In this document: piece after piece, positions 1 through 62,411 of the stretch
Position numbering within the stretch: position 1 is the first letter of the stretch
Layout of the letters: each line of letters begins with the position of its first letter
DNA from: Methanoregula sp.
Lineage (GTDB): Archaea > Halobacteriota > Methanomicrobia > Methanomicrobiales > Methanospirillaceae
NCBI GenBank assembly: GCA_039698055.1
Contig: JBDKTL010000043.1
Location: 1 to 64,000, forward strand
Direction: 5' to 3'
Length of the DNA: 64,000 nt
Program-made: the position numbers and the translations under genes
The notes under the pieces: generated by a model
Database searches by the model: none
What the model was told of the DNA's origin: nothing
What the model saw: only the letters and a program-made list of their open reading frames with translations

Positions 1-94
1 CAAGCCTCACATGAGTCTCAACTGGGATGAACCGTGTAACGTCTTCTGGTACAAATTGCCTCCGGAGAGGATTTTGGATTATGCGAAGAAATGG

Positions 95-1504
95 TTATAT
101 GTGTAAAATTAATTCGGGATTCCACAAATCCACGATATCATGCAAGTTAAAATATCGATGAGTAATGTAATTTCGAATGTCAGCCATCTTTTTAAATTTA
201 TTATCCGTAGAAGATCTTCCCTCTAAATCTCTTCGGATACTATCCATTGCAACAAGATGACGATTCCACGAATTTTTTTCCAAAAGATCAGTCTGAGTGA
301 AAATTGTGTCTCCCCAAAAATTTACTTTTGAATCATCTAAACCCAATTCCTCGTAATCATTTAATAGTAAAGCAATTTTGTCGTATATATTCATGATTAA
401 AACAAATGATTGTTTTAACGATTCAATATTGAACAGATAATTTAAACTGTAATCCGGTTCGTAGCGTTGTTTATCTAAAAAAATAAGGTCTTTATGCCTG
501 AAATGAGACAGTGCGAGAGTAACCCGAGCTGTCTTATAATCGTCTCTCAAAGCAAACCATTTCTTCATCAACTCATATGATCTTTTGTTGTCATGAATTG
601 ACGTAATAAACCTAAAATCGATTAAATCTAATGATTTACATGAGCACTCGTGACAATCAAAATGGACATTAAGAAAAAGGCCGTTGTCTTCACAAAACTT
701 CTGATAGAACTCTTGAAAACCTTCAGAGGATTCTTTATAATAATTAAACTTACTACCAAGAACTCCTTTTTTTCGGGGTATCAATTTTTTAAGGGTTCGT
801 TCAGGATTAAATTTGATTTTATTTGCTTCAAAAAAATCATCTGCTGTTTTTTTTAACGATGGATTTATCGGATTGTTTGGATTCAAAGAATATTCCATTT
901 TCAAAAAAGTCATCGCATGAAGCCATAACAATTTCTTATCTTGTTCGTTTGTTACGAACGTCGAAAGATGCCAAGAGCACGTTCCACGCGCTGCCCAAGC
1001 ATTATAATGGGTGGGATTTCTTACGATCGCATTATCGTAGCATTCGATTCCTTCTAAATACCGACCTAAATCATTAAAAGTATTTCCTAAATTTATCCAA
1101 ACCTCCGGTTGATTGTCATCTATCGATAAAGATTCTTCAAAAAGACCTTTAACTTTTTCTAGATGCTCTATTATTTCAGGGTTTAATTTCCCCTTATTCG
1201 TCATTAGATCAAAAAGTGTTAGTTTTTGGTATGCGTTTCCAAGATTGTATAGGTGATGGGTTTTATTTTTTGGATCTTTCTCAAGAACAAACTCTAAATG
1301 GTTAATGGCTTCAAAAATTTCATTTCTACAATGAATGTTCCCATCCCACCGATCAACGAGAATTATCGCCTTTAAAGATCTAGCCTGTATGGTATTTTTG
1401 TCTAATTTTGGAATTGTGTCAAAAACCTTAAGGGCTTCATCATATTGATAATTTTGATACAATTTGGATGCATTTGCAAGAATTATTTCAGTTTTTTTCA
1501 TCAT
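95..1504 (-). CDS. TPR-repeat protein with C-terminal HEPN domain (LA2681-like), putative defence RNase
   Basis: TPR helices (YNLGNAY, WINLGNTFNDLGRYLEGIECYDNAI); C-terminal RNYITH = Rx4H HEPN motif; AT-rich; C-terminus may be shortened. Confidence 0.7.
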   Translation of the reverse strand: MMKKTEIILANASKLYQNYQYDEALKVFDTIPKLDKNTIQARSLKAIILVDRWDGNIHCRNEIFEAINHLEFVLEKDPKNKTHHLYNLGNAYQKLTLFDLMTNKGKLNPEIIEHLEKVKGLFEESLSIDDNQPEVWINLGNTFNDLGRYLEGIECYDNAIVRNPTHYNAWAARGTCSWHLSTFVTNEQDKKLLWLHAMTFLKMEYSLNPNNPINPSLKKTADDFFEANKIKFNPERTLKKLIPRKKGVLGSKFNYYKESSEGFQEFYQKFCEDNGLFLNVHFDCHECSCKSLDLIDFRFITSIHDNKRSYELMKKWFALRDDYKTARVTLALSHFRHKDLIFLDKQRYEPDYSLNYLFNIESLKQSFVLIMNIYDKIALLLNDYEELGLDDSKVNFWGDTIFTQTDLLEKNSWNRHLVAMDSIRRDLEGRSSTDNKFKKMADIRNYITHRYFNLHDIVDLWNPELILHI

Positions 1505-1582
1505 TTTTCTTTCCGTAAAATCTTCTTTTCTTTGAAGCCTTTTGAACAGCCATAAATGATGCTCAACCGCATACCCTTAAGC

Positions 1583-2374
1583 CTACAAATGCCACCGGGT
1601 CCGGTACGCCAAGCAAACCTTCTCCAGCATCTTCTGGTATTCAGCATCGATATCGACACCGAGATTGTTTTCCCGGGCAAGAGATGGCGGGTTCACGTTG
1701 TCGATGAACACCGGGACGAAGAGAATATAGTCATACCCCTTGACATGGGTAAGCCCGATCTTCCGTGTGGGAAGCCCTTTGAATTTCTCCATCGTCTGCG
1801 CAGGATCGTTCGCCCGGTTTTCACTGATATCCTCTTCAAAATCTGTCCATAATGTCTGATCGCCGGAAGATAACCGGGGCACAACGGAGTCCTGGAACTC
1901 CCGGGGTTTCTTTTTGAAATGGGACTTGACGCCGTCGGGGATATTCAGTACCCGTTCGGCAATCCCGACCATGACAGTCGCTCCCATGATGATCTCGGAT
2001 TTTATCCCGTGAAGATCCTGCAATACTTCGTAGAGGTCGTCGAACCGTGCATCGCGGTTGCGGTGAGCGGTTATTACGGATTTATTCTCGATGCAGATCC
2101 TGACGTTCCGGAGATCGGGATTCCCGGCAACATCCGGTTCCCCGATGAGCAGATCCATCTTTCTCCCCCTTTGGGTGGGAGACTCGACATTCAGCCAGCT
2201 CTTTACGATGTGATTATCGATGTCCTGCTTCAGTTCCGGACATTTCAGCATAAGATCCCGGAAGATTCCCCGGCTGACGATATCCGAGTGCATCTGCTGG
2301 CGGTGATTATGGTAGTGTTCCATCACGATGTTGTCGATCACTTCGTCGAAAGGTGTTTTCATCATATCATCCAT
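1583..2374 (-). CDS. Putative type II restriction endonuclease (PD-(D/E)xK fold)
   Basis: MDLLIG...IENKS catalytic-like motif; overlaps the stop of the upstream methyltransferase. Confidence 0.65.
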   Translation of the reverse strand: MDDMMKTPFDEVIDNIVMEHYHNHRQQMHSDIVSRGIFRDLMLKCPELKQDIDNHIVKSWLNVESPTQRGRKMDLLIGEPDVAGNPDLRNVRICIENKSVITAHRNRDARFDDLYEVLQDLHGIKSEIIMGATVMVGIAERVLNIPDGVKSHFKKKPREFQDSVVPRLSSGDQTLWTDFEEDISENRANDPAQTMEKFKGLPTRKIGLTHVKGYDYILFVPVFIDNVNPPSLARENNLGVDIDAEYQKMLEKVCLAYRTRWHL

Positions 2375-52812: not shown

Positions 52813-53175
52813 CTAAGTGGGTCTGTAGCTTAGTTCGGCATAGCGGCGGACTCTTAATCCGCAGGTCAAGGGTTCAAATCCCTTCAGGCCCGTTTTCTTT
52901 TGTGATTCTGACTCTCGCAGAGTTTTATTTGATTTTTCATTCGGTTTAAACTCATTATTTCTGATTTCGGTTATGTCAGTTTCGACATTTTTCAAATTCA
53001 ACGGTTTAAACTCGTTAGATTCTGTTGATAGGAAGAAACCACCATCAACCTTGCAGATGGATACAGGCTTACCGATAAGTGCGCGATAATGACTCCAAGG
53101 GAACTGGATATAAGGAGCGAGGAATCCTTTCTTTGGATGCAATTTTTTAAATTGAGTTTTCGTAATTAATTCTAT
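52813..53175 (-). pseudogene. Putative N-terminal fragment Int(N) of a split integrase, reading antisense through the tRNA
   Basis: Open frame IELITKTQFKKLHPKKGFLAPYIQFP...TGLKGFEPLTCGL runs through the tRNA; same strand as Int(C) at the far end of the island; family assignment is inference. Confidence 0.5.
52819..52892 (+). tRNA. tRNA-Lys (CTT)
   Basis: Acceptor GGGTCTG/CAGGCCC, anticodon arm GCGGA-CTCTTAA-TCCGC, T arm GGTTCAAATCC; CCA not encoded. Confidence 0.95.
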
Positions 53176-53276
53176 ATTTTACAATAGATTTTAGAAAGAT
53201 TATAGATTATCATACGGTGAAAAAAATTGCTTTATGGAAGAGAGATTGATTAAAGAATAAGACGAGAATATAAATT

Positions 53277-53465
53277 ATGTCATTATACGATACAATTGTT
53301 CAAGCAGTCGGGGCATTATTTATTATCTATATTTTCGGATTTGTTGTTCTACCAGCGTTTGCGACCGCTACAGGTCAAAGCACATTACTTTTCACAATAT
53401 TATTCATTTTACTCGCTATAAGCGTCGTCATTAGCGTTATTGTAGCAATCAAAAGGAGCCTTTAA
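53277..53465 (+). CDS. Small 2-TM membrane protein
   Basis: Two hydrophobic helices, basic C-terminus. Confidence 0.55.
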   Translation: MSLYDTIVQAVGALFIIYIFGFVVLPAFATATGQSTLLFTILFILLAISVVISVIVAIKRSL

Positions 53466-53466
53466 C

Positions 53467-54096
53467 ATGGTATTAAAAGAATTAGATCACTATTTTGGAA
53501 TATATAGGGATCTTGTTATCGGTTTAACCTTTCTAGTAGCTCTTGCTGCAATAACAGGTTTTAAATTGGATATCCCCACTTGGTTCAATTCCTTAACACC
53601 TGAAGGTAAATTCTATTCACTTATTCTTCTCGATGCAATTTTTACGCTATTTGTAGGATATGTGATTTATTCGAAGTTGGATGAGAAAATTCAGGGGATA
53701 AGAACTACAAATTCGGGTATAGAAATAAAACCAATTTTCCTTTCAGAAATCAGAGCATTAAAGATACAATTAGAACCGATTATTGCAGCACAAACTGATA
53801 TGACCACTTTGAGTAAAATAATCATGAAGGATTTTGGCAATGGGATGCCAAAATTTTATCCTAATAATGGAGCTTTCCATTTATACAAAGAAAAAATACC
53901 ACTTCTTGATTTTGATTTACAGTCTAAACTTTTGCAGTTCTATCAAAAAATAACTCAAGCAAGTGAATGCCATCAACAGATCTTCCAAAAAGACCCTTCA
54001 AGAGCCGATTATACAAAAATTCAATGTTTTAGCAATTATTTGAAAGAAGCGAATGATCTGATACCCCATCTCCTTGAGAAACTACAGTCGTCCTGA
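53467..54096 (+). CDS. Hypothetical protein, 2 N-terminal TM plus helical cytoplasmic domain
   Basis: ORF directly coupled to 53277-53465. Confidence 0.6.
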   Translation: MVLKELDHYFGIYRDLVIGLTFLVALAAITGFKLDIPTWFNSLTPEGKFYSLILLDAIFTLFVGYVIYSKLDEKIQGIRTTNSGIEIKPIFLSEIRALKIQLEPIIAAQTDMTTLSKIIMKDFGNGMPKFYPNNGAFHLYKEKIPLLDFDLQSKLLQFYQKITQASECHQQIFQKDPSRADYTKIQCFSNYLKEANDLIPHLLEKLQSS

Positions 54097-54291
54097 AATA
54101 TTAGAATAATTTTGTTTTCGTCTAATCTGTGTCACGTAAGGAACACCAATCTTTTCTGCAATCTCCTTGTAGTTCATTCCATCTTTGTGAAGAAGATCAA
54201 CATACTTCCAATCGATATCTTTGAAGGGTCTACCGCAATGTTTCCCCTCATCCCTTGCTCTTTGCATTCCAACCTTTGTCCTCTCAATAAA
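54082..54291 (-). pseudogene. Serine recombinase (resolvase) C-terminal remnant
   Basis: IERTKVGMQRARDEGKHCGRP plus HTH (MNYKEIAEKIGV); catalytic N-terminus absent. Confidence 0.75.
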
Positions 54292-54350
54292 TTACATGCA
54301 GCTTTTCAGTTAATACTGAAACTTGAGTTTATTATCGCTATCTCTAACCC

Positions 54351-55796
54351 TCAATTCCTATTCTTGATTAATTCGGTTGCTTGAATTACCCCTTTCTCAC
54401 TTAAGACATTAAGTAAAACATCGTGTGCTTTTCGGACACCTTTTCCTCCACCTAAGAATGCAAAGGGTGAAGTTTGTTTATCCCAATCAAAATCATCTAA
54501 AAGTCCGAGGAATTTCTTAATTGAATCCTTATCGTAGGGATCTAGATTATCGCTAATACACCAAGAGTAAACATTATTTGCAAGATAATTAAATGCGTAA
54601 ATCGAGGTTGTTCGAAGCATCAAGAATTGTTTCCGTGTTTTTTCTTCGAACGTTTGAGGGAACATTTCTCTGATACAACCCCAATAATTTATTAAAAATG
54701 TCTTTTTCTGATCAAAATCCAATTCTTTAAACCGATTATTATCAAAAAGTGGTTTCAACGACGATACAAAGGAGAATAATGGCACCGGATGCCCATTACT
54801 CATTGTTCCACCGAGATTGATGAGCCCTTGAAATGGTGATGATTCTTTATTAAGTTCGTTTACAATGGGAACAATTTCTGTTCTCCATTTTTCCTTATCA
54901 ATAATCGGAATCCCAGTAATCCCTGCCTTTAGTGTTTTATATGCTAATTCATCTTTTAAGGAGGGATTGACGGGTTTTTGAGTTTTATTAATAATAAAGA
55001 AAAATGCACCCTCTAATTCGGACTGTTTGATTTTCAGATTTTCAGGCGATTCTTTTTCCATTTTTTTAATTATTGCTTTAGAATCGACGAAAACAATTGG
55101 GATTTCAAAAGACAACAATTCCGTGTATTTTTTTATCAATTCTTCTCGATTGGGTAATGAGTGCTTCGTCTGCAGTTTTTTGATTTCTTTATAGATCTCC
55201 TCAAATCCACCGGTTCTTTGCTGTCCGTCCAAAATTGAAATTGCCCCGGGTTTCAATGGAATTTCAAGAATTCCCCTATCATCATCAGAGGATTTGAATT
55301 TTGCATTACCAAAACTTGCTAATATTGCTGGAATAATAGAGATAGAACAACCTTCGAGATATTTTTTTATTTCACTTGTTCTTTCACGGAATTTCTCTCG
55401 TTGATATCCATCCAATACCTCGTCTCTCCACTGGTCAGAGGTAGATAATAACAAAAGTTCCTTCGCCTGGACTTTACCAATATAAAGGGGCATTCCTTTT
55501 TGTTGAATTTTGATTACCTTAATCTTCAGAGTTACATCAGAGATTTTTTTCCATACTTTTTCCAAATTTTGCGATTGGATTTTGGGATAATTCCTATAGA
55601 TATCAATTATTTCGATGACACTGAGATTGTTAAAATCGCTTGTTATCTCGTTCTGTGCAATCTTCTCTAAAGTATCATTCATTTTATCAGGGAAGAATAA
55701 TGCAGGATTATTCCAGCAGTTCTCACAGACATATCTTCCATCATAGGGGCCGTGTTGGGGTCCTTTAATCTCAAATCCACATGAGGAACAAATCAT
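54351..55796 (-). CDS. Zn-finger plus DGQHR (DndB-like) domain protein
   Basis: CSSC...CENC N-terminus; GYQR, ILDGQQR, FFIINKTQKPV. Confidence 0.82.
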   Translation of the reverse strand: MICSSCGFEIKGPQHGPYDGRYVCENCWNNPALFFPDKMNDTLEKIAQNEITSDFNNLSVIEIIDIYRNYPKIQSQNLEKVWKKISDVTLKIKVIKIQQKGMPLYIGKVQAKELLLLSTSDQWRDEVLDGYQREKFRERTSEIKKYLEGCSISIIPAILASFGNAKFKSSDDDRGILEIPLKPGAISILDGQQRTGGFEEIYKEIKKLQTKHSLPNREELIKKYTELLSFEIPIVFVDSKAIIKKMEKESPENLKIKQSELEGAFFFIINKTQKPVNPSLKDELAYKTLKAGITGIPIIDKEKWRTEIVPIVNELNKESSPFQGLINLGGTMSNGHPVPLFSFVSSLKPLFDNNRFKELDFDQKKTFLINYWGCIREMFPQTFEEKTRKQFLMLRTTSIYAFNYLANNVYSWCISDNLDPYDKDSIKKFLGLLDDFDWDKQTSPFAFLGGGKGVRKAHDVLLNVLSEKGVIQATELIKNRN

Positions 55797-56878
55797 TTCG
55801 ATGCACCCTTCTTTTTTTCGGCATATAATTCAAAAGCTTCTTCGAAATCCGTAGCTCTGTTAAATTTGTTCACAAGTCCGTCATACGCCGGAAATGCACC
55901 ACCATATCCAATGACTCTTCGTGCATGTTGAACAAGTTCGATTTTATTCATATCCCAATTTGGAGAAATAAAAGTATTTTTCTCGATTGCGTAGAGAGAT
56001 TCATACCTCATAGGATAACATACGATACCCCAGTTTAAGATTTCCCGAACGCGATTAAAAAATTCATCTGGTGTCTCTCTATAGTTGAAAAGAGTATACA
56101 CAAAAATATCCCTTTTTTTAATACCGGCATCAAGTAAACGCTCAACAGCCTTTTTTACAAATTTTTGTTGATCATGAGAATCATACGCAAGCCGTATGGT
56201 AGAATCAAGTTTTAGAGAAGCGATCATTTTTGCAACGGGCTCTGTGATGAGTTTTGCATCAATACCCTGATTGAAGTCAACCTTTTTATCGAAATCGATG
56301 AGTTCCTTAAAAATATCCATACGGTATTTGTTTGCAAGAAAATTGTTGTCAAAAAAAATAATTTTTGTATGTCTACCCAGAACAAATGGGTTGATGCTCT
56401 TTTTCAGTGAATTCATTTTTCCTTCTAAACGAGGAACAGCACAAAAATCACATTTATTGCAGCAACCTCTTGACGAGAAAATAATACTTCCATCCCAATC
56501 TGGGACTAAATCATAATCCGGGAAAATATTCTCGGCTTTTGAACAGAGACCTTGGTATATTCGATCGGCACCGGATAGTCTTGCATGATCAGGAAGGAGG
56601 GATGCATAGATGCCCCCAAGCCAAATTTCCGCTTTTGGAAATTCTTTTTTGTAAAATGAAACTGCCTCCCAAACTGGCTTCCACGCCCATGAGAATAGAC
56701 TGGTGACGTATATTTTATTAGGATTCGTTTTCGGAATTCTTTGATCCTTTTTTTCGAAATCAATTAATTCCGTTGTATCACCTTTTGTTTTATGGTATGC
56801 AGAAAGTTTTAAGAGACCAATTGGCGGGAATTTGGAATAATATGCGGGTTCGACGAGAAGTATGTGATTGGTCATCAA
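55793..56878 (-). CDS. Radical SAM enzyme with B12-binding-like N-terminal domain
   Basis: PPIGLLKLSAYHK, GGIYAS, SRGCCNKCDFC (CxxxCxxC), DNNFLA, DFNQGID. Confidence 0.88.
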   Translation of the reverse strand: MMTNHILLVEPAYYSKFPPIGLLKLSAYHKTKGDTTELIDFEKKDQRIPKTNPNKIYVTSLFSWAWKPVWEAVSFYKKEFPKAEIWLGGIYASLLPDHARLSGADRIYQGLCSKAENIFPDYDLVPDWDGSIIFSSRGCCNKCDFCAVPRLEGKMNSLKKSINPFVLGRHTKIIFFDNNFLANKYRMDIFKELIDFDKKVDFNQGIDAKLITEPVAKMIASLKLDSTIRLAYDSHDQQKFVKKAVERLLDAGIKKRDIFVYTLFNYRETPDEFFNRVREILNWGIVCYPMRYESLYAIEKNTFISPNWDMNKIELVQHARRVIGYGGAFPAYDGLVNKFNRATDFEEAFELYAEKKKGASK

Positions 56879-56936
56879 GGATAGGTTAGTGATCTACATT
56901 ATTTAAGATCTTTTATTTTGAAGATCCCAAAAGCGA

Positions 56937-59300
56937 CTATGAAGAGGGTGTTGGAGGAGATGCCAATCTTGGTTTTAACACATCATAGATCATGGTGACA
57001 TACTCCAAATCTTGAGCTGTAACACCCTTTGGTTTTATCGAATGAGCAACCTGTTTGCGGATGTTATTGAGTTTGGTGAACCAAGATAATTTTTTCGATT
57101 TGCTATCATTAGGTTTTGAATTAATTGAAAACGTTTCACCAAATAGACTCCACTCGGAATCGATTATTTCCTTCAAATCAATTAAATCAATGAACTTTTC
57201 GTAATCGTTCAATTCTCCTTCTTCATCAGCCCGTTTCATGGCTTTTGCCCTAATTGGGGATGAAACTTTAAACCACCATTGAGAACGTTCATTTCCATAA
57301 TTTGCTTTTAAGGTACTGAAAACATAATCGTGAACCATAGGTTCAATTTTATCCAGAACGATTTCCCTAGTTGCTTGATTAATCGATGGATCCTTCTTCT
57401 TCAACCACTCTTTTAAAATTTCAGGCTCAAATTCCGGGTATTGCTCATGAATCTTCGAGAGTAATACTAAAGTACTATCTTTCACCCCTACTTCACCAGT
57501 GCCACGTCGCAATTCTGAACGAACTTGGGGGGGGATATCAGCTAAAAATTTAATGACAGGTGTGACGTATTTCTCGGTATGCTCAAGAAGAACAGGAGTT
57601 TTTAACTTTCTTGGGTCAACCTGGTCTTTAATAGAAATATGGTCGAAAATAAATTTCAGTGTTTTCAATGTTGATAATATGCCCAGATTTGTACAGATGA
57701 ACCCGCCATCACCGCTTCCAATATCCCATTGAGTTTTTACTTTATCGTTTTTCAGAAATAACGAATAATAACCGCTAATTACTTCGACCCCTCTTATCAA
57801 CGTTGAATCCAGATCATTATGGTATAAAGGCCCATGCGTGATGTCATGAGTTTTCTTATTCAAGACTTCACCGAATAGACGATCTTTTTTCATTTCTGTG
57901 ACTAGTCCGGTCAATGTTAAATTCCGGTTTTTGGTTTTATTTCCTCCAACTTTTATGACCTTGTCTCTCAAGGGAGAGTTTTTGTCTTTATCTAGTTGTT
58001 TTACTAAATTTGCAAGTAAAGCGTCCAAACGAAGATTTGGATCATCTGAATTCCAATTTAATTCAGAGTGAAGGTCTAATAATTGGTTTTTTGGTACTTT
58101 TACTTGTTCTCCATTAATGTCAATAAATAACTGAGCTTGTGTTGCTGAATCTAAATTTTCAAAAGCTATAACAGGAATCGTTGCCGTCTTCGCCTCTTCC
58201 AAATTTGCGAAGGCAAATAAACGGTGTTGACCATCAATAACTTGTGCACATTGATATATATTCGGTAAATACAACTTCCCAAGAACTGCATTTTGTCCAG
58301 CCATATCGGCGGCTTTATCGAATCTTAGCGGACTGTCAGTTCGAATATTTAGAACAATATTTGTTGGAAAAATTCCCTTCTTGTCCCGAATGTATTCTGC
58401 GATTTTATTCAATCGCTTCTTTTTGGCCATTCTTTGATATGAATCGAGAGATTCAATATTTCTTTTACCTCTGTGAGCGATATATGCTAATTTAAGCAAT
58501 TTGTCAGGTTCGATTACAAAAGAGTAGAATTCTTTTTCGCCCATTGTTCCTTTCATAGCCGGGATTGAATCGATTAAATTTGGGATCTCTCGTTTTTCTA
58601 GGAAATCGGATAAAAATTGGTATTTTGCGGCGTGACCAAAATGTTTCGAAAACTCATTGTAATAATCTAAAAGCGGATCATCAATGATGAAAATATTTGC
58701 CAGATCGGCCCGTTGCCTATCATTATCATTTATATCGATATTTTTCGTTGCAAGAATCCATACAAATTTAAATTTTTGAGGTTCCCCCTTATCATTATAA
58801 TATTGATTAATTGAGAGATCAATATCTCTTCGAATTGCTTCTATTTCAGTAATATCTGTGTTTAACGATTTTTTTGTATGTTGTTCTTCTGCAGATTTAC
58901 ATTCTACAATACAGATACATTGATCTTCCCTTGCGAAAACATCGATTTGTTTTGTGATGTTGGATTCAAATCTAGGGATAACAAAATTTTTTGATTCTTT
59001 ATTCATTTCAAAAAAGCCCATGCGGTAAAAAATACACCACACTTCATCCTCAAAACCAGAACCAATATCCTTCAGTTTCCTTAATTTAATATGTGTTTTA
59101 CTTCGGCTACGGACTTTTTCCCACTTATCATTCAAGAATGATGAAATATCTTGTTTAACTACATTTTTTGACACATATTTTTGATTTCTTTTACTATATG
59201 CCCGATCAAGATCCTCTCCTGACACAAGACCTTGGAACGGCGACAACGACGTTTTTGTTTCAGCACCATTCTTTTTTGAAGGAGTGGAATTTCTGACCAT
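56937..59300 (-). CDS. PD-(D/E)xK nuclease - DGQHR (DndB-like) - Swt1-like HEPN fusion
   Basis: FEDEV...QIDVFA...IVECKS; SYQR, FPTNI, VIDGQHRL, LFIDINGEQ; C-terminal WW...LIDLKEII...NNIRKQVAH. Confidence 0.82.
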   Translation of the reverse strand: MVRNSTPSKKNGAETKTSLSPFQGLVSGEDLDRAYSKRNQKYVSKNVVKQDISSFLNDKWEKVRSRSKTHIKLRKLKDIGSGFEDEVWCIFYRMGFFEMNKESKNFVIPRFESNITKQIDVFAREDQCICIVECKSAEEQHTKKSLNTDITEIEAIRRDIDLSINQYYNDKGEPQKFKFVWILATKNIDINDNDRQRADLANIFIIDDPLLDYYNEFSKHFGHAAKYQFLSDFLEKREIPNLIDSIPAMKGTMGEKEFYSFVIEPDKLLKLAYIAHRGKRNIESLDSYQRMAKKKRLNKIAEYIRDKKGIFPTNIVLNIRTDSPLRFDKAADMAGQNAVLGKLYLPNIYQCAQVIDGQHRLFAFANLEEAKTATIPVIAFENLDSATQAQLFIDINGEQVKVPKNQLLDLHSELNWNSDDPNLRLDALLANLVKQLDKDKNSPLRDKVIKVGGNKTKNRNLTLTGLVTEMKKDRLFGEVLNKKTHDITHGPLYHNDLDSTLIRGVEVISGYYSLFLKNDKVKTQWDIGSGDGGFICTNLGILSTLKTLKFIFDHISIKDQVDPRKLKTPVLLEHTEKYVTPVIKFLADIPPQVRSELRRGTGEVGVKDSTLVLLSKIHEQYPEFEPEILKEWLKKKDPSINQATREIVLDKIEPMVHDYVFSTLKANYGNERSQWWFKVSSPIRAKAMKRADEEGELNDYEKFIDLIDLKEIIDSEWSLFGETFSINSKPNDSKSKKLSWFTKLNNIRKQVAHSIKPKGVTAQDLEYVTMIYDVLKPRLASPPTPSS

Positions 59301-59350
59301 GCAAACAACTTAACTTCACCGAATGCTGAAATTAACCTTTCTATTACCTT

Positions 59351-59882
59351 TCAAGATTTCGAATTAAAATATTGAATTCTTACCGATCCCCAATGCTCCA
59401 TGAACCTCTTATAAACGTTCTCCAGCAGAAATTGTTTATAAGATGTCCAATTAATCGAATTGACACCATGAGACATTATAAAGTTCTTATTAGCGTCGTT
59501 GAATCCGATCTCATCTGACTTCTGCTCGAAGAATTTACGGAGATCCTTTAATTGGAGATTGCCCATTGTCTATGAGAGTGGAACTGAATTTCGTGATAAC
59601 CATTGTTTCAAGCCCTCATAACTAAACAAACCCTCATCAGATGATCTTCCTTCAATAGCATCAATGAGGTGTGGAATAATTAACTGATGAAGTGGAGCGT
59701 AGTGTTCTAATCGAATTTTATCTTGCCTTGCTTGAACAGTTAAGACAGGAGGAGATCGGTTCAGCGCATCACGGAACTGTCCAACGGTAATCCTGCATGC
59801 TGTTATTACTCTCTGACCTGAATATGCAAGAAATAGGATAGCGCAGCAATAGTTTTGTTTTTTTGGTCCATCCCAATTTTTT
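59351..59882 (-). pseudogene. Tyrosine integrase catalytic fragment Int(C) with internal amber stop
   Basis: YSGQR, QDK, KDLRK, MSHG, TSYK; in-frame TAG at 59570-59572; 5' end missing. Confidence 0.8.
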
Positions 59883-60674
59883 TTACCAGAACTCGAACGC
59901 ACCCATACCAAGGTTGCCCCAGTACCAGCTCTGGTGGATAATTTTTCCCTTTGCATCCGGCCCGGCTGCGCCAAGCGCCGTAAAGAGCGGCATGAAATGG
60001 TCGGGATAATACTGGGCGTGGATGGCCGATGGTGCGAGCTCACGGTAGCTGATCAGGCTCTTTTTGTCACCATACGTCACTGCCCGGTTCAGCCACTCGT
60101 TGAACGCGATCGCCCAGATCTCAGTCCGTAGTCCTTCACCCAGTGCAACCGTCGGATCGCCAAGCGGGTGAACCGCCCCGCCGCTGCCGATGACGAGCAC
60201 GCCTTCCTTCCGGAGGGGAGCGATTGCTTCGCCGAGTGCGAGGTGAAGAGCCGGGTCAAGATGATCCTGGATCGATAACTGGACTACCGGAACCGTAGCA
60301 TCCGGGAACATCAGCATTGACGGGACCCATGCCCCATGGTCGAGCCCCCGCCCGGTATCCCTGTCGCAGGGAAGTCCTGCTGCTTCAACAAGGCCGGCAA
60401 CCCGTCGGGCAAGATCCGGGGAGCCCGGCGCCGGGTAGGTAATCCGGTAGAGTTCATCGGGAAATCCGTAGAAATCGTGAATGGTCGGGGGACGGGCAAT
60501 CGTGTTCACCGAAGGACGGGTTGTGTTCCAATGCGCCGATACGCAGAGCACGGCACTAATATCCGTAAAATGTTTTCCAAGCCCAGCAAGAAACCTGCGG
60601 GCCGGCACTCCCTGTTCCAGCGCGAGGGTTGGTGCACCGTGTGACACAAAAAGAGTGGGAAGGGAATCCGGCAT
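59883..60674 (-). CDS. DODA/LigB-type extradiol dioxygenase family protein
   Basis: SHGAP, SAHW, HDFYGFP, GLDHGAW, GSGGAVH, DHFMPL. Confidence 0.92.
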   Translation of the reverse strand: MPDSLPTLFVSHGAPTLALEQGVPARRFLAGLGKHFTDISAVLCVSAHWNTTRPSVNTIARPPTIHDFYGFPDELYRITYPAPGSPDLARRVAGLVEAAGLPCDRDTGRGLDHGAWVPSMLMFPDATVPVVQLSIQDHLDPALHLALGEAIAPLRKEGVLVIGSGGAVHPLGDPTVALGEGLRTEIWAIAFNEWLNRAVTYGDKKSLISYRELAPSAIHAQYYPDHFMPLFTALGAAGPDAKGKIIHQSWYWGNLGMGAFEFW

Positions 60675-61820: not shown

Positions 61821-61859
61821 GTTCATGTAACGTGAACCTATTGTTCAGGATCCATGAAC
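61821..61859 (+). promoter_or_regulatory. Tandem GTTCA-N7-TGAAC operators
   Basis: 61821-61837 and 61843-61859; the second overlaps the ATG at 61854. Confidence 0.7.
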
Positions 61860-62411
61860 GAACGACCGCATGATTTCTCCGCGCTCTTCAGGACGGAGGA
61901 ACGCATAACCCTCCTCCGTGCTGCTCTCACCATGCCAAAATGTACGGTGCGGCAGATAGCATCAAAGACCGGGTTGTCAAAAGGACTTGTCTCCCCGTAC
62001 CTCGCCCTGCTCGAACGCGAAGGGCTGCTTGAGAAGGACGAACGAATATACAAACTGAAGTTTTCCCCGCTGGCTGTAGCCGTGAAACGTCTCCTGAATA
62101 TCGATCTCGTCACTGCCGTTTTCAAAAAACCGGCATGGGCGTCCGGCATCGGAATGTACGGGAGCTGGGCTGGTGGGACGAACACAGAGGAGAGCGATAT
62201 CGATCTCTGGGTGTATTGTGAAAACCTGCCGCCGGGAATTCTGGTCGCAGAGCTTGAGCGGGAGATATCGCGTGCACTTTCTGCGGAAGTCCATGTTCTT
62301 ATCCTCACTGAAGAGAAGATTACCAGGTTGAAAGGATCTGATGAACCGTTTTACCGGTCGTTTGTGAAACAATCGATCACGTTCGAAGGTGATTTCCCTG
62401 ACACGGCTTGA
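61854..62411 (+). CDS. wHTH-minimal nucleotidyltransferase (MNT) antitoxin
   Basis: VRQIASKTGLSKGLVS HTH; YGSWAGG...SDIDL. Confidence 0.88.
   Translation: MNERPHDFSALFRTEERITLLRAALTMPKCTVRQIASKTGLSKGLVSPYLALLEREGLLEKDERIYKLKFSPLAVAVKRLLNIDLVTAVFKKPAWASGIGMYGSWAGGTNTEESDIDLWVYCENLPPGILVAELEREISRALSAEVHVLILTEEKITRLKGSDEPFYRSFVKQSITFEGDFPDTA

What the first reader, a model, noticed from the sequence alone, without database searches (positions are those of the whole stretch)
54351..59300. Candidate new DNA-modification/defence system: nuclease-DGQHR-HEPN + radical SAM + ZnF-DGQHR
Seen: three intact co-directional genes (58-bp gap, then a 4-bp overlap) form the main surviving cargo of a decayed tRNA-integrated element whose integrase and resolvase are broken. 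Gene 1 fuses a PD-(D/E)xK motif (ID..ECK), a DGQHR domain and an Rx4H HEPN tail. Gene 2 is a CxxxCxxC radical SAM enzyme with a B12-binding-like N-terminus. Gene 3 has a C4 Zn finger and a DGQQR variant. Known: DGQHR/DndB-like domains accompany DNA phosphorothioation (dnd, DndB) and 7-deazaguanine insertion (dpd, DpdB). The island has no dndCDE or dpdA/TGT; the only chemistry gene is the radical SAM enzyme. Inference: the radical SAM enzyme with a DGQHR partner installs an unknown DNA or nucleotide mark, and the nuclease/HEPN-DGQHR protein restricts unmarked DNA or triggers abortive infection.
Basis: partly seen in the sequence, partly recalled or inferred. Interest (0 to 1): 0.9.

Follow-up and report, generated by a model that had tools for sequence, protein, structure and literature searches.

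The report
Radical-SAM enzyme replacing a restriction system's methylase
Three intact genes on a foreign DNA island in a methanogen look like a restriction-modification system whose usual DNA methylase has been replaced by an uncharacterised radical-SAM enzyme, which would mean an unknown chemical mark on DNA.

Summary
The three genes, their spacing and all quoted motifs are real. The "broken integrase/resolvase" remnants were not confirmed. Gene 1 is nuclease–DGQHR–HEPN, gene 2 a compact B12-domain-type radical SAM (rSAM) enzyme, gene 3 a Zn-ribbon–DGQHR protein.

Four results point to the rSAM as a DNA-marking enzyme:
- In 80 gene-1-centred metagenome loci, 59 carry a Dam-type adenine DNA methylase beside gene 1, 10 carry this rSAM, and none carries both. 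The window's nearest gene-1 relatives include both kinds.
- The rSAM family is fused to DNA C5-cytosine methylases (2 cluster representatives) and to an N6/N4 methylase (1).
- In 18 of 80 rSAM-centred genome loci it adjoins PbeA/PbeC-type genes, where DndCDEA or methylases sit in published systems. No DndC was found in the 10 such genomes tested.
- It occurs alone in phages (phrog_9298; Marinitoga camini virus 1, 44% identity).

The rSAM is also linked to SNF2- and GHKL-ATPase cassettes. Gene-1, small-DGQHR and rSAM genes recur on plasmid pNL1.

No specific Pfam, NCBIfam or PADLOC model fits the rSAM, and ten paper searches found no description.

Best reading (about 0.6): a restriction-modification-like system with rSAM chemistry. 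The mark is unknown and nothing has been shown experimentally.

The parts
56937..59300 (-). Gene 1 (787 aa): N-terminal PD-(D/E)xK-type nuclease (about residues 60-240), DGQHR/ParB-like domain (248-472 and beyond), and C-terminal Swt1-type HEPN (about 649-754). Proposed restriction/effector component.
   Evidence: The AF2 model (pLDDT 84) has weak Foldseek matches: Cdn1/Can2/Card1/NucS nucleases for the N-terminus and the ParB N-domain for the middle. A full-length orthologue is on plasmid pNL1 (33% identity, E 2e-130).
57885..58559 (-). DGQHR domain core of gene 1
   Evidence: TIGR03187, 173 bits against a cut-off of 58.85. The DGQHR motif is invariant.
55793..56878 (-). Gene 2 (361 aa): compact radical SAM enzyme with an N-terminal B12-binding-like domain. 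Proposed DNA-marking enzyme.
   Evidence: Matches phrog_9298 at E 1e-64. The family has 511 clusters (50% identity) at E<=1e-30.
54351..55796 (-). Gene 3 (481 aa): C4 Zn ribbon plus DGQHR-family domain (DGQQR). Proposed NTP-dependent DNA-engaging helper of the rSAM, by analogy with DpdB.
   Evidence: It lies immediately downstream of the rSAM in 15 of 80 rSAM-centred genome loci. These rSAMs form one clade.
52818..52893 (+). tRNA-Lys(CTT) at the left edge of the low-GC island
52894..59880 (.). Low-GC island (GC about 0.36-0.42 against 0.53-0.61 in the flanks) that carries the three genes
   Evidence: The right edge abuts the stop codon of a high-GC 263-aa ORF at 59883.
59351..59880 (-). Two same-frame ORF pieces separated by an in-frame TAG at 59570-59572.
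   Evidence: No Phage_integrase hit here, and no PDB or plasmid match.
54082..54267 (-).
   Evidence: No HTH_7 hit. The only match is to Thermococcus plasmid ORF t26-31p, of unannotated function.

Best explanation
This is a restriction-modification-like defence module on a horizontally acquired island, in which an rSAM enzyme takes the place of the usual DNA methyltransferase.

Inferred mechanism:
1. The rSAM (gene 2) uses a 5'-deoxyadenosyl radical, and possibly cobalamin, to put a so far unknown covalent mark on the cell's own DNA.
2. The translationally coupled Zn-ribbon-DGQHR protein (gene 3) acts as a nucleotide-hydrolysing, ParB-like DNA loader or presenter for it, as DpdB does for DpdA.
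3. Gene 1 reads DNA through its own DGQHR/ParB-like domain. It cuts DNA that lacks the mark with its PD-(D/E)xK nuclease. The HEPN RNase is a second, possibly abortive, effector.

Shown here: the domains, the conserved catalytic motifs, the gene linkages, the fusions and the distribution. Inferred: that DNA is the substrate, the direction of discrimination (unmarked DNA is attacked), the role of gene 3, and any chemistry.
For: 1. Displacement in place. Of 80 gene-1-centred metagenome loci (the best 80 of 525), 59 have a D12-class N6-adenine DNA methylase directly beside gene 1 (PF02086; 5 of 5 tested at E 1e-44 to 1e-57). Ten have this rSAM within 5 kb, none has both, and 11 have neither, 8 of those with a flank under 1.1 kb. 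On a FastTree of 84 gene-1 proteins the rSAM label needs at least 6 changes. The window's gene 1 sits in a 5-row clade (support 96) with two rSAM-linked and two Dam-linked relatives.

2. Fusions. P0337 and P0413 are a DNA C5-cytosine methylase followed by this rSAM (M.HaeIII E 2.8e-29; 8yf3 E 1.9e-27). P0245 is this rSAM, then a weak ParB_N match, then an N6_N4 DNA methylase (E 5e-16).

3. Modification slot of Pbe. PbeA (E 4e-225) and PbeC (E 5e-136) cassettes adjoin the rSAM in 18 of 80 rSAM-centred genome loci. DndC was found in 0 of the 10 such genomes tested. Xiong 2019 (PMC6459918, passages read) reported 320 of 553 PbeAC pairs without dndCD and proposed pairing with other modifications.

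4. Other partners are DNA-acting NTPases or nucleases: SNF2 (ZorD/DpdE-like), GHKL, PLD, an Eco57I-type methylase and ParB_N. Seventy-three of 80 loci carry at least one recurrent module.

5. Stand-alone phage copies. The rSAM matches phrog_9298 at E 1e-64. Fifteen GenBank phage records match, including Marinitoga camini virus 1 at 44% identity over 96% of the length. One IMG/VR virus has it two genes upstream of a ParB_N-N6_N4 methylase.

6. Recurrence of the three families. They recur in the same order in L001 and L003 and, with all three genes in pieces, in L045, and as rSAM-g3-g1 in L109. More distant relatives of the three families lie together on conjugative plasmid pNL1 and in L116/L119 and L128.

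7. Precedent. The DGQHR protein DpdB is an ATPase required for DpdA to insert preQ0 into DNA (PMC10164549, abstract read).

8. Patchy distribution. Gene 1 is in 7 of 401 genomes of the phylum (own genome included) and in 0 of the 11 other genomes of the genus.

9. Own genome: no dnd or dpd genes.
Against: - No experiment of any kind: no modified nucleoside and no phenotype.
- Gene 1 is not obligately tied to the rSAM. Only 10 of 80 gene-1 loci have it. In genome G237 an intact gene 1 and the rSAM lie on different contigs.
- Between the window and L003's contig, the rSAM is 82% identical but gene 1 only 49%. So the modules are exchanged and might be merely co-located.
- The rSAM scores below the curated cut-off of every Pfam and NCBIfam model.
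- Its nearest folds include enzymes that act on small molecules, proteins and tRNA: AprD4, TsrM, MgmA and MiaB. The fold therefore does not point to DNA.
- Fusion to methylases could mean that it elaborates a methylated base rather than marking DNA alone, yet the window has no methylase beside it.
- The 80 loci in each survey are the best-scoring of 481 and 525 confirmed candidates, not random samples.
- MAG-derived loci can be chimeric.
Confidence: 0.6

Rival explanations
1. The rSAM is a nucleotide-modifying antiviral effector, like viperin or the 1,2-diol dehydratase AprD4. It would make a chain-terminating or otherwise toxic nucleotide, and the neighbouring NTPase/nuclease proteins would sense infection or regulate it.
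For: AprD4 is among the best fold matches (E 5e-9). rSAM enzymes are known in defence: viperins, and Ophion in bioRxiv 2025.09.30.679545 (passages read). The defence-island context also fits.
Against: - The rSAM is mutually exclusive with a DNA methylase beside gene 1 (0 of 80 loci with both).
- It is fused to DNA C5 and N6/N4 methylases.
- The partners already carry nucleases as effectors.
- The rSAM is the constant, highly conserved element (53-85% identity to the window's protein in a 17-sequence alignment drawn mostly from archaea) while the partners vary. That is the opposite of the usual pattern of variable effectors.
- No PADLOC model matches it.
Confidence: 0.12
2. The adjacency is defence-island co-location. 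Gene 1 would be an autonomous nuclease, and rSAM plus gene 3 a separate two-gene unit whose function has nothing to do with protecting DNA from gene 1.
For: - Seventy of 80 gene-1 loci lack the rSAM.
- G237 has the two genes unlinked.
- The rSAM-gene 3 pair also occurs with Pbe or PLD cassettes in place of gene 1.
- Gene 1 has diverged far more than rSAM and gene 3 between close loci.
Against: - The either/or pattern with the Dam methylase implies that gene 1 needs a modification partner.
- rSAM linkage arose at least 6 times on the gene-1 tree and in both major rSAM clades.
- The same three families are together on pNL1 at 26-33% identity.
- Three own-phylum genomes with stop-interrupted gene-1 copies (G337, G217, G362) have no rSAM hit. 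This is a small sample from genomes 82-90% complete.
Confidence: 0.15
3. The rSAM modifies RNA or tRNA (MiaB/RimO-like), or matures a partner protein, rather than DNA.
For: Fold matches to MiaB, RimO and MtaB, and to the protein methylase MgmA. Gene 1 carries a HEPN RNase domain.
Against: - Only three cysteines are invariant, so there is no auxiliary cluster as methylthiotransferases have.
- The partner families are too varied to share one protein substrate.
- The fusions are to DNA methylases, not RNA methylases (best PDB matches M.HaeIII and M.HhaI).
Confidence: 0.08

Closest known systems
Dpd system (DpdA transglycosylase with DpdB DGQHR ATPase; 7-deazaguanine in DNA)
   Same: A DGQHR/ParB-like protein is coupled to a DNA-modifying enzyme. 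Both DGQHR proteins here have DpdB as their best PADLOC match (E 1e-22 and 3e-15). The defence logic is restriction-modification. DpdB is an ATPase needed for insertion of the base (PMC10164549, abstract).
   Different: There is no DpdA/TGT-like gene in the island. The genome's single TGT is on another contig. DpdB equivalog scores are 75.8 and 51.4 against a cut-off of 300. The catalytic enzyme is an rSAM, and there are no dpdC-K genes.
Dnd/PbeABCD phosphorothioate-based defence (also called the CxC ABC-ATPase-DndE system)
   Same: Relatives of the rSAM, with or without gene 3, sit directly beside PbeA/PbeC cassettes (18 of 80 loci). Published systems have DndCDEA or cytosine methylases in that position (PMC6459918 and PMC10853773, passages read). 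A DndB-like domain is present.
   Different: The window has no PbeA/PbeC and no DndC/D/E. DndC was found in 0 of the 10 Pbe+rSAM genomes tested. The mark cannot be assumed to be phosphorothioate.
Two-gene restriction-modification pair: nuclease-DGQHR-HEPN protein plus Dam-type (D12) adenine methylase
   Same: It has the same restriction-like protein family as gene 1. This is the commonest context of that family (59 of 80 loci). A ParB-HEPN fusion (Saro_3948) was listed by Anantharaman et al. 2013 (PMC3710099, table passage). I did not check that it is the pNL1 protein.
   Different: In the window the methylase is replaced by the rSAM plus a Zn-ribbon-DGQHR protein.
B12-binding-domain radical SAM enzymes (TsrM, MgmA, CysS, TokK, OxsB, AprD4) and MiaB/RimO
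   Same: Overall fold (Foldseek E 2.6e-11 to 5e-5, TM about 0.6). It has the CxxxCxxC motif and the PPxGL and GGxxxS motifs of the N-terminal domain.
   Different: At 361 aa it is much shorter. There is no auxiliary-cluster cysteine set and sequence identity is 10-16%. The genomic context is defence or restriction-modification rather than biosynthesis or translation. Cobalamin use is untested.
Ophion and prokaryotic viperins (rSAM enzymes in phage defence)
   Same: An rSAM enzyme inside a defence locus.
   Different: Ophion is a viperin-like rSAM with a PHP and a PRTase protein (bioRxiv 2025.09.30.679545, passages read). Here the rSAM is of the B12-domain type, the partners are DNA-acting, and no PADLOC model matches it.

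Membership tests
Radical SAM superfamily | CxxxCxxC cluster-binding motif in a partial TIM barrel | tested here: met
   C139/C143/C146 are invariant in 17 of 17 sequences. The AF2 model matches solved rSAM enzymes. Pfam PF04055 scores only 15 bits against a cut-off of 29.5.
Cobalamin-dependent (class B) radical SAM methylases | N-terminal cobalamin-binding Rossmann-like domain that binds cobalamin | tested here: inconclusive
   PF02310 scores 19.7 bits against a cut-off of 32.1. The fold resembles TsrM, TokK and OxsB, but also AprD4 and MiaB. Cobalamin binding cannot be read from sequence.
Methylthiotransferases (MiaB/RimO) | Second, auxiliary [4Fe-4S] cluster bound by three N-terminal cysteines, plus a TRAM domain | tested here: not met
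   No conserved cysteines outside CxxxCxxC. The protein ends at residue 361 with no extra domain. NCBIfam hits cover only the motif region.
DGQHR domain family (TIGR03187) | Score over the domain model's cut-off, and the DGQHR motif | tested here: met
   Gene 1 scores 171 bits and gene 3 scores 104 bits against a cut-off of 58.85. Gene 1 has DGQHR; gene 3 has DGQQR.
DndB (phosphorothioation regulator) / Dnd system | DndB equivalog score, and dndC, dndD and dndE present | tested here: not met
   TIGR03233 scores 30.9 bits against a cut-off of 328. No DndC over cut-off in the genome.
Dpd system | DpdB equivalog score, and a DpdA (TGT-like) gene in the cluster | tested here: not met
   NF041060 scores 75.8 and 51.4 bits against a cut-off of 300. 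The only TGT hit is on contig C37.
PbeABCD | PbeA (HKD nuclease-helicase) and PbeC (CxC ABC ATPase) in the locus | tested here: not met
   None of the three window proteins has a PbeA or PbeC hit. These genes are present beside rSAM relatives elsewhere.
PD-(D/E)xK nucleases | D...(D/E)xK catalytic motif on a restriction-endonuclease fold | tested here: met
   D120 and E133 are invariant and K135 is at least 90% conserved. Fold matches to Cdn1, Can2, Card1, NucS and AF1548 are weak (E 3e-3 to 0.1). Pfam Card1_endonuc scores E 0.12.
HEPN (Swt1-like) | Rx4-6H motif in an all-helical domain | tested here: inconclusive
   The motif is present and is kept in 16 of 18 sequences. The region is helical in the model. 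Pfam scores 20.4 bits against a cut-off of 27.5, and PADLOC PDC-M34B scores 6e-6. No HEPN structure appears among the listed fold matches.
Classical restriction-modification system | A nuclease paired with a SAM-dependent DNA methyltransferase | tested here: not met
   No methyltransferase is among the three genes. Relatives of gene 1 do have one (59 of 80). That is the basis for calling this a variant.

The most novel reading that the evidence does not exclude
The rSAM family (phrog_9298-like; 511 clusters at 50% identity with E<=1e-30) would be a new class of DNA-modifying enzyme. It would make a radical-derived mark on DNA, an epigenetic self-mark not yet described. One possibility follows from its fusion to C5-cytosine methylases and from the many apparently anaerobic organisms and phages among the records that carry it: it may work on the methyl group of 5-methylcytosine or thymine, as an oxygen-independent counterpart of TET/JBP-type hypermodification. 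Cells would use the mark as the self label for at least four unrelated restriction-type modules: nuclease-DGQHR-HEPN, PbeABCD, SNF2 cassettes and GHKL cassettes. Phages would use it for anti-restriction.
Probability: 0.4. Interest if true: 0.92.

Novelty: new variant of a known kind. Interest (0 to 1): 0.82.

Why it matters
The self-marks I know of in restriction-modification-type immunity are methylation, phosphorothioation and 7-deazaguanine (from my own knowledge, not checked here). An rSAM enzyme serving as the marking component would add a new chemistry to DNA epigenetics. It could explain many 'orphan' PbeABCD systems that lack dnd genes, an open point raised by Xiong et al. 2019. It would also assign a function to a widespread family found in phages, plasmids, archaea and bacteria that currently has none.

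The family is testable in cultured material: plasmid pNL1 of Novosphingobium aromaticivorans, rhizobial plasmids, Marinitoga camini virus 1, and the Bacteroides and Clostridium phages that carry relatives.

Tried and rejected
- Complex prediction of rSAM with gene 3: no verdict (scores 0.21, 0.48, 0.00). It counts neither for nor against binding.
- RNA evidence. Three metatranscriptome runs from one study hold short, 100%-identical contigs over parts of gene 3, gene 1 and the ORF piece at 59658-59837. None lies inside gene 2. The tool warns that DNA carry-over is possible, so expression is not shown.
- Hidden DGQHR/ParB relatives among the unknown neighbour families c2, c8, c10, c16, c11 and c5: hhalign found no relationship (probabilities 1% or less).
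- Profile searches of the rSAM and gene-1 alignments against PDB sequences gave only spurious PPR matches or nothing.
- att repeats of the tRNA at the far end of the island: none found.
- Integrase and resolvase identity of the flanking ORF pieces: not supported.
- An SSV-type split integrase across the tRNA was considered from the ORF at 52813-53142, which overlaps the tRNA. It was dropped for lack of any family match or repeat.
- P0356 and P0368, which have N-terminal extensions on the rSAM: no PDB sequence match.
- The careful IQ-TREE run for the rSAM tree did not finish, so the quick tree was used. The quick run for gene 1 did not finish either, so FastTree was used.
- Krishnan et al. 2020 (NAR, ABC ATPase classification) first described the CxC-DndE systems. 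It is not held, so I could not check whether it mentions this rSAM.
- Supplementary data of PMC6459918 and PMC10853773 were not opened. They list gene neighbourhoods and may bear on this.
- Ten paper searches found no paper that links this rSAM with DGQHR, Pbe, GHKL or restriction-modification.

Full report
**What is in the window.** Three co-directional ORFs lie on the minus strand at 56937-59300 (gene 1, 787 aa), 55793-56878 (gene 2, 361 aa, TTG start) and 54351-55796 (gene 3, 481 aa). They are separated by a 58-bp gap and a 4-bp overlap. They sit in a low-GC stretch (0.36-0.42) between flanks of 0.53-0.61. The stretch starts right after a tRNA-Lys(CTT) at 52818-52893.

Gene 1:
- A DGQHR domain (TIGR03187, E 3e-50; best PADLOC match DpdB, 1e-22).
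- A weak Swt1-type HEPN match at the C-terminus (Pfam E 7e-4, below cut-off; PADLOC PDC-M34B 6e-6).
- A very weak Card1-type nuclease match at the N-terminus.
- In an 18-sequence alignment of full-length relatives, D120, E133, C134 and DGQHR 356-360 are invariant, K135 is at least 90% conserved, and the R-x4-H motif is kept in 16 of 18.
- An AF2 model (pLDDT 84) gives weak fold matches. The N-terminus resembles PD-(D/E)xK nucleases (Cdn1, Can2, Card1, NucS, AF1548) and the middle resembles ParB N-domains.

Gene 2:
- An invariant CxxxCxxC (C139/C143/C146) and no other conserved cysteine.
- It scores below the curated cut-off of every Pfam and NCBIfam model and matches no PADLOC model.
- Its AF2 model (pLDDT 88.9) resembles B12-domain rSAM enzymes and MiaB/RimO at TM about 0.6.

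Gene 3:
- An invariant C4 Zn ribbon and a DGQHR-family domain. The motif reads DGQQR here and DGQHR in more distant relatives.

The genome is 93% complete. It has only these two DGQHR genes, no DndC over cut-off, and a single TGT on another contig.

Two ORF pieces share a frame across a TAG. Pfam Phage_integrase and HTH_7, PDB sequence searches and plasmid searches gave nothing for these pieces. No att repeat was found.

**The rSAM family and its neighbours.**
- The family is large. The word-index search found 2332 proteins at E<=1e-3 among 3951 candidates. A full profile search of 50%-identity representatives gave 4592, 2165 and 511 clusters at E<=1e-3, 1e-10 and 1e-30.
- It is strongly conserved: the 17 aligned sequences, mostly archaeal, are 53-85% identical to the window's protein.
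- I took the best 80 of 481 confirmed loci in species-representative genomes and clustered their neighbours.
- Seventy-three of 80 carry at least one recurrent module within 5 kb. Six of the 7 without one have a short flank.
- Counts overlap: GHKL ATPase 27, unknown family c2 22, Pbe-type genes 18, gene-3-type immediately downstream 15, unknown pair c8/c10 11, SNF2 cassette 10, full-length gene-1 type 5, other DGQHR 5, c16 5, nucleotide cyclase-like 5.
- Annotation: c4 is PbeA (E 4e-225), c6 is PbeC (E 5e-136) and c12 is a ZorD/DpdE-like SNF2 helicase.
- Other loci have a PLD nuclease, an Eco57I-type methylase, a ParB_N protein, or a GmrSD gene nearby.
- On a quick maximum-likelihood tree, the rSAMs followed by gene 3 form one group of 16 rows (support 89) inside a starred clade of 20. 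The outer module varies within that group: gene 1, Pbe or PLD cassette. Gene-1-only pairings occur three times in the other major clade (the careful search did not finish).

**The trio elsewhere.**
- The same three genes in the same order occur in L001, L003 and L045. In L045 all three are in several frame pieces.
- L109 has rSAM, gene 3, then gene 1.
- Conjugative plasmid pNL1 of Novosphingobium aromaticivorans carries PIN-like, ATP-binding, small DGQHR, rSAM and ATP-binding genes in a row. A convergent 769-aa protein is a full-length gene-1 orthologue (33% identity, E 2e-130). The rSAM there is only 26% identical to ours.
- A Bradyrhizobium plasmid has the same five-gene row with a DEAD-helicase cassette instead of the gene-1 orthologue.
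- L116/L119 and L128 resemble pNL1.

**The key test, starting from gene 1.** I scanned metagenome contigs with the gene-1 alignment, kept the best 80 of 525 confirmed loci and clustered the neighbours.
- Fifty-nine of 80 loci have a roughly 285-aa protein directly beside gene 1 on the same strand. It is a D12-class N6-adenine DNA methyltransferase (PF02086; 5 of 5 tested, E 1e-44 to 1e-57).
- Ten of 80 have the rSAM (HMM E<=1e-8), 7 of them with a GHKL gene.
- None has both.
- Eleven have neither. Eight of these have a flank shorter than 1.1 kb. L129, L134 and L182 do not.
- On a FastTree of 84 gene-1 proteins, the rSAM label needs at least 6 changes. The window's protein lies in a 5-row clade (support 96) with two rSAM-linked relatives (L001, L003) and two Dam-linked ones (L107, L108, 50-51% identity).

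So gene 1 is ordinarily the nuclease of a two-gene restriction-modification pair, and the rSAM has repeatedly taken the methylase's place. This is the strongest argument that the rSAM marks DNA.

**Fusions.**
- Among longer relatives, P0245 (782 aa) joins this rSAM to a weak ParB_N-like stretch (E 0.039) and an N6_N4 DNA methylase (E 5e-16).
- Fourteen of the 150 listed representatives are 540 aa or longer.
- Two of them (P0337, P0413) are a DNA C5-cytosine methylase followed by the rSAM (M.HaeIII E 2.8e-29; 8yf3 E 1.9e-27).
- One (P0320) fuses the rSAM to family c2 (E 1e-26).
- Six carry intein-like insertions (see the last section).
- Two (P0356, P0368) have unexplained N-terminal extensions.
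- The remaining three (P0383, P0414, P0432) showed only the rSAM domain and were not looked at further.

**Pbe link.**
- Xiong et al. 2019 showed that DndCDEA-PbeABCD protects against a haloarchaeal virus. They noted that 320 of 553 PbeAC pairs lack dndCD and might pair with other modifications (PMC6459918, passages read).
- Aravind's group re-described Pbe as the CxC ABC-ATPase-DndE system coupled to phosphorothioation or to cytosine methylases. 'Radical SAM' appears in that paper only in connection with DndC (PMC10853773, passages read).
- Here the rSAM occupies that position in 18 of 80 loci. DndC was found in none of the 10 such genomes tested. The completeness of those genomes was not reported.

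**Mobile elements.**
- The rSAM matches phrog_9298 (E 1e-64).
- It matches 15 GenBank phage records. Marinitoga camini virus 1 has a stand-alone copy at 44% identity over 96% of the length.
- It occurs in 3 IMG/VR contigs. One has terminase and portal genes, with the rSAM next to a PDDEXK gene and two genes upstream of a ParB_N-N6_N4 methylase.
- It matches 22 plasmid records.
- A stand-alone copy in viruses fits a self-marking or anti-restriction role better than a toxin or effector role.

**Results against, or limiting, the reading.**
- Gene 1 is linked to the rSAM in only 10 of 80 gene-1 loci.
- In genome G237 an intact gene 1 and the rSAM lie on different contigs. The rSAM there ends a PLD-containing cassette.
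- Gene 1 differs far more than the rSAM between related loci (49% against 82% on L003's contig). The modules are therefore exchanged.
- Fold similarity does not point to DNA.
- The methylase fusions may mean that the rSAM elaborates a methylated base, yet the window has no methylase beside it.
- Both surveys used top-scoring loci, many of them from MAGs.
- Gene 1 is patchy: 7 of 401 genomes of the phylum (own genome included) and 0 of the 11 other genomes of the genus.
- Three own-phylum genomes (G337, G217, G362) have stop-interrupted gene-1 copies and no rSAM hit. G327 has gene-1 pieces at contig ends and also no hit. These four genomes are 79-90% complete. This fits a dependence of gene 1 on the rSAM, but the sample is too small to weigh.

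**Mechanism proposed.**
1. The rSAM marks the cell's own DNA.
2. Gene 3, translationally coupled to it, is its ParB-like, NTP-driven DNA partner. This is by analogy with the DGQHR ATPase DpdB, which DpdA needs to insert preQ0 into DNA (PMC10164549, abstract).
3. Gene 1 cuts unmarked DNA, with the HEPN domain as a second effector.

The domains, motifs, linkages, fusions and distribution are shown. The substrate, the direction of discrimination, the role of gene 3 and the chemistry are inferred. I put this reading at about 0.6. The rivals are a nucleotide-modifying effector (0.12), mere co-location (0.15) and an RNA or protein substrate (0.08).

**Novelty.**
- No Pfam, NCBIfam or PADLOC model covers the rSAM above threshold.
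- Ten full-text searches found no paper that links it to DGQHR, Pbe, GHKL or restriction-modification.
- The only other rSAM defence system that turned up, Ophion, is different: a viperin-like rSAM with PHP and PRTase proteins.
- Krishnan et al. 2020 is not held, and supplementary tables were not opened, so an earlier passing mention cannot be excluded.
- The logic is that of restriction-modification. The marking enzyme would be new. Hence 'new variant of a known kind', with high interest.

**Other points.**
- Six of the 14 long representatives carry intein-like insertions at two conserved sites. One is in the CxxxCxxC motif and one follows the DFNQxxD motif. Most junctions read C...HN|C or C...GN|C.
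- Complex prediction gave no verdict.
- The RNA runs were inconclusive.

Noticed in passing
Proteins P0319, P0327, P0329 (first site) and P0344, P0366, P0375 (second site), all relatives of window gene 2: Six of the 14 long rSAM representatives carry 260-500-aa intein-like insertions at two conserved sites. One is at or in the CxxxCxxC motif and the other is right after the DFNQxxD motif. Most junctions are typical of inteins (C...HN|C or C...GN|C). This marks DFNQxxD as a probable functional site.
   Followed up: partly
window 59351-60043 (-): Two ORF pieces share a frame and are separated by a single TAG at 59570-59572. The upstream piece overlaps the 3' end of a high-GC 263-aa ORF.
   Followed up: yes
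Protein P0320; family c2, e.g. L016:6952-7995 and L031:6561-7610: An unknown ~350-aa family (c2) flanks the rSAM in 22 of 80 loci, often divergently transcribed. It has weak HTH_23, PDC-M38A and PD-Lambda-5_A matches, and it is fused to the rSAM in P0320 (E 1e-26). It may be an alternative DNA-binding partner that plays the role of gene 3.
   Followed up: partly
L096 (NC_009426.1, plasmid pNL1, record 114946-125348): A cultured, genetically tractable bacterium carries PIN-like, ATP-binding, small DGQHR, rSAM and ATP-binding genes plus a convergent full-length gene-1 orthologue on a conjugative plasmid. It is a ready experimental model.
   Followed up: partly
L045 (5690-10532): A close relative of the whole trio has gene 1 in six frame pieces and gene 3 in four, while the rSAM is intact. 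This is either decay or long-read assembly error.
   Followed up: no
L002, L004, L005 and L106 (G237:C2): A further recurrent cassette ends in the rSAM: a ~1110-aa, a ~650-aa (c24), a PLD nuclease (~275 aa) and a ~1100-aa protein. All but the PLD have no Pfam match. It is reminiscent of large BREX- or DISARM-like systems.
   Followed up: partly
G337:C21, G217:C336, G362:C102: Gene-1 relatives with in-frame stops occur in three genomes where no rSAM was found (genomes 82-90% complete). This fits loss of the nuclease once the marking enzyme is gone, but n = 3.
   Followed up: partly
L095 (4843-5616): In one viral contig the rSAM follows a DUF5906 (primase/helicase-type NTPase) gene and lies near a DUF5131 (phage Gp37/Gp68 family) gene.
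   Followed up: no
window 1-2000: A second low-GC stretch (0.375) lies at the very start of the window, well below the window's usual 0.5-0.6.
   Followed up: no
window 61854-62411 (+): A 185-aa ORF just outside the island looks by eye like a small nucleotidyltransferase (GS...DxD-type motif). No family search was run on it.
   Followed up: no
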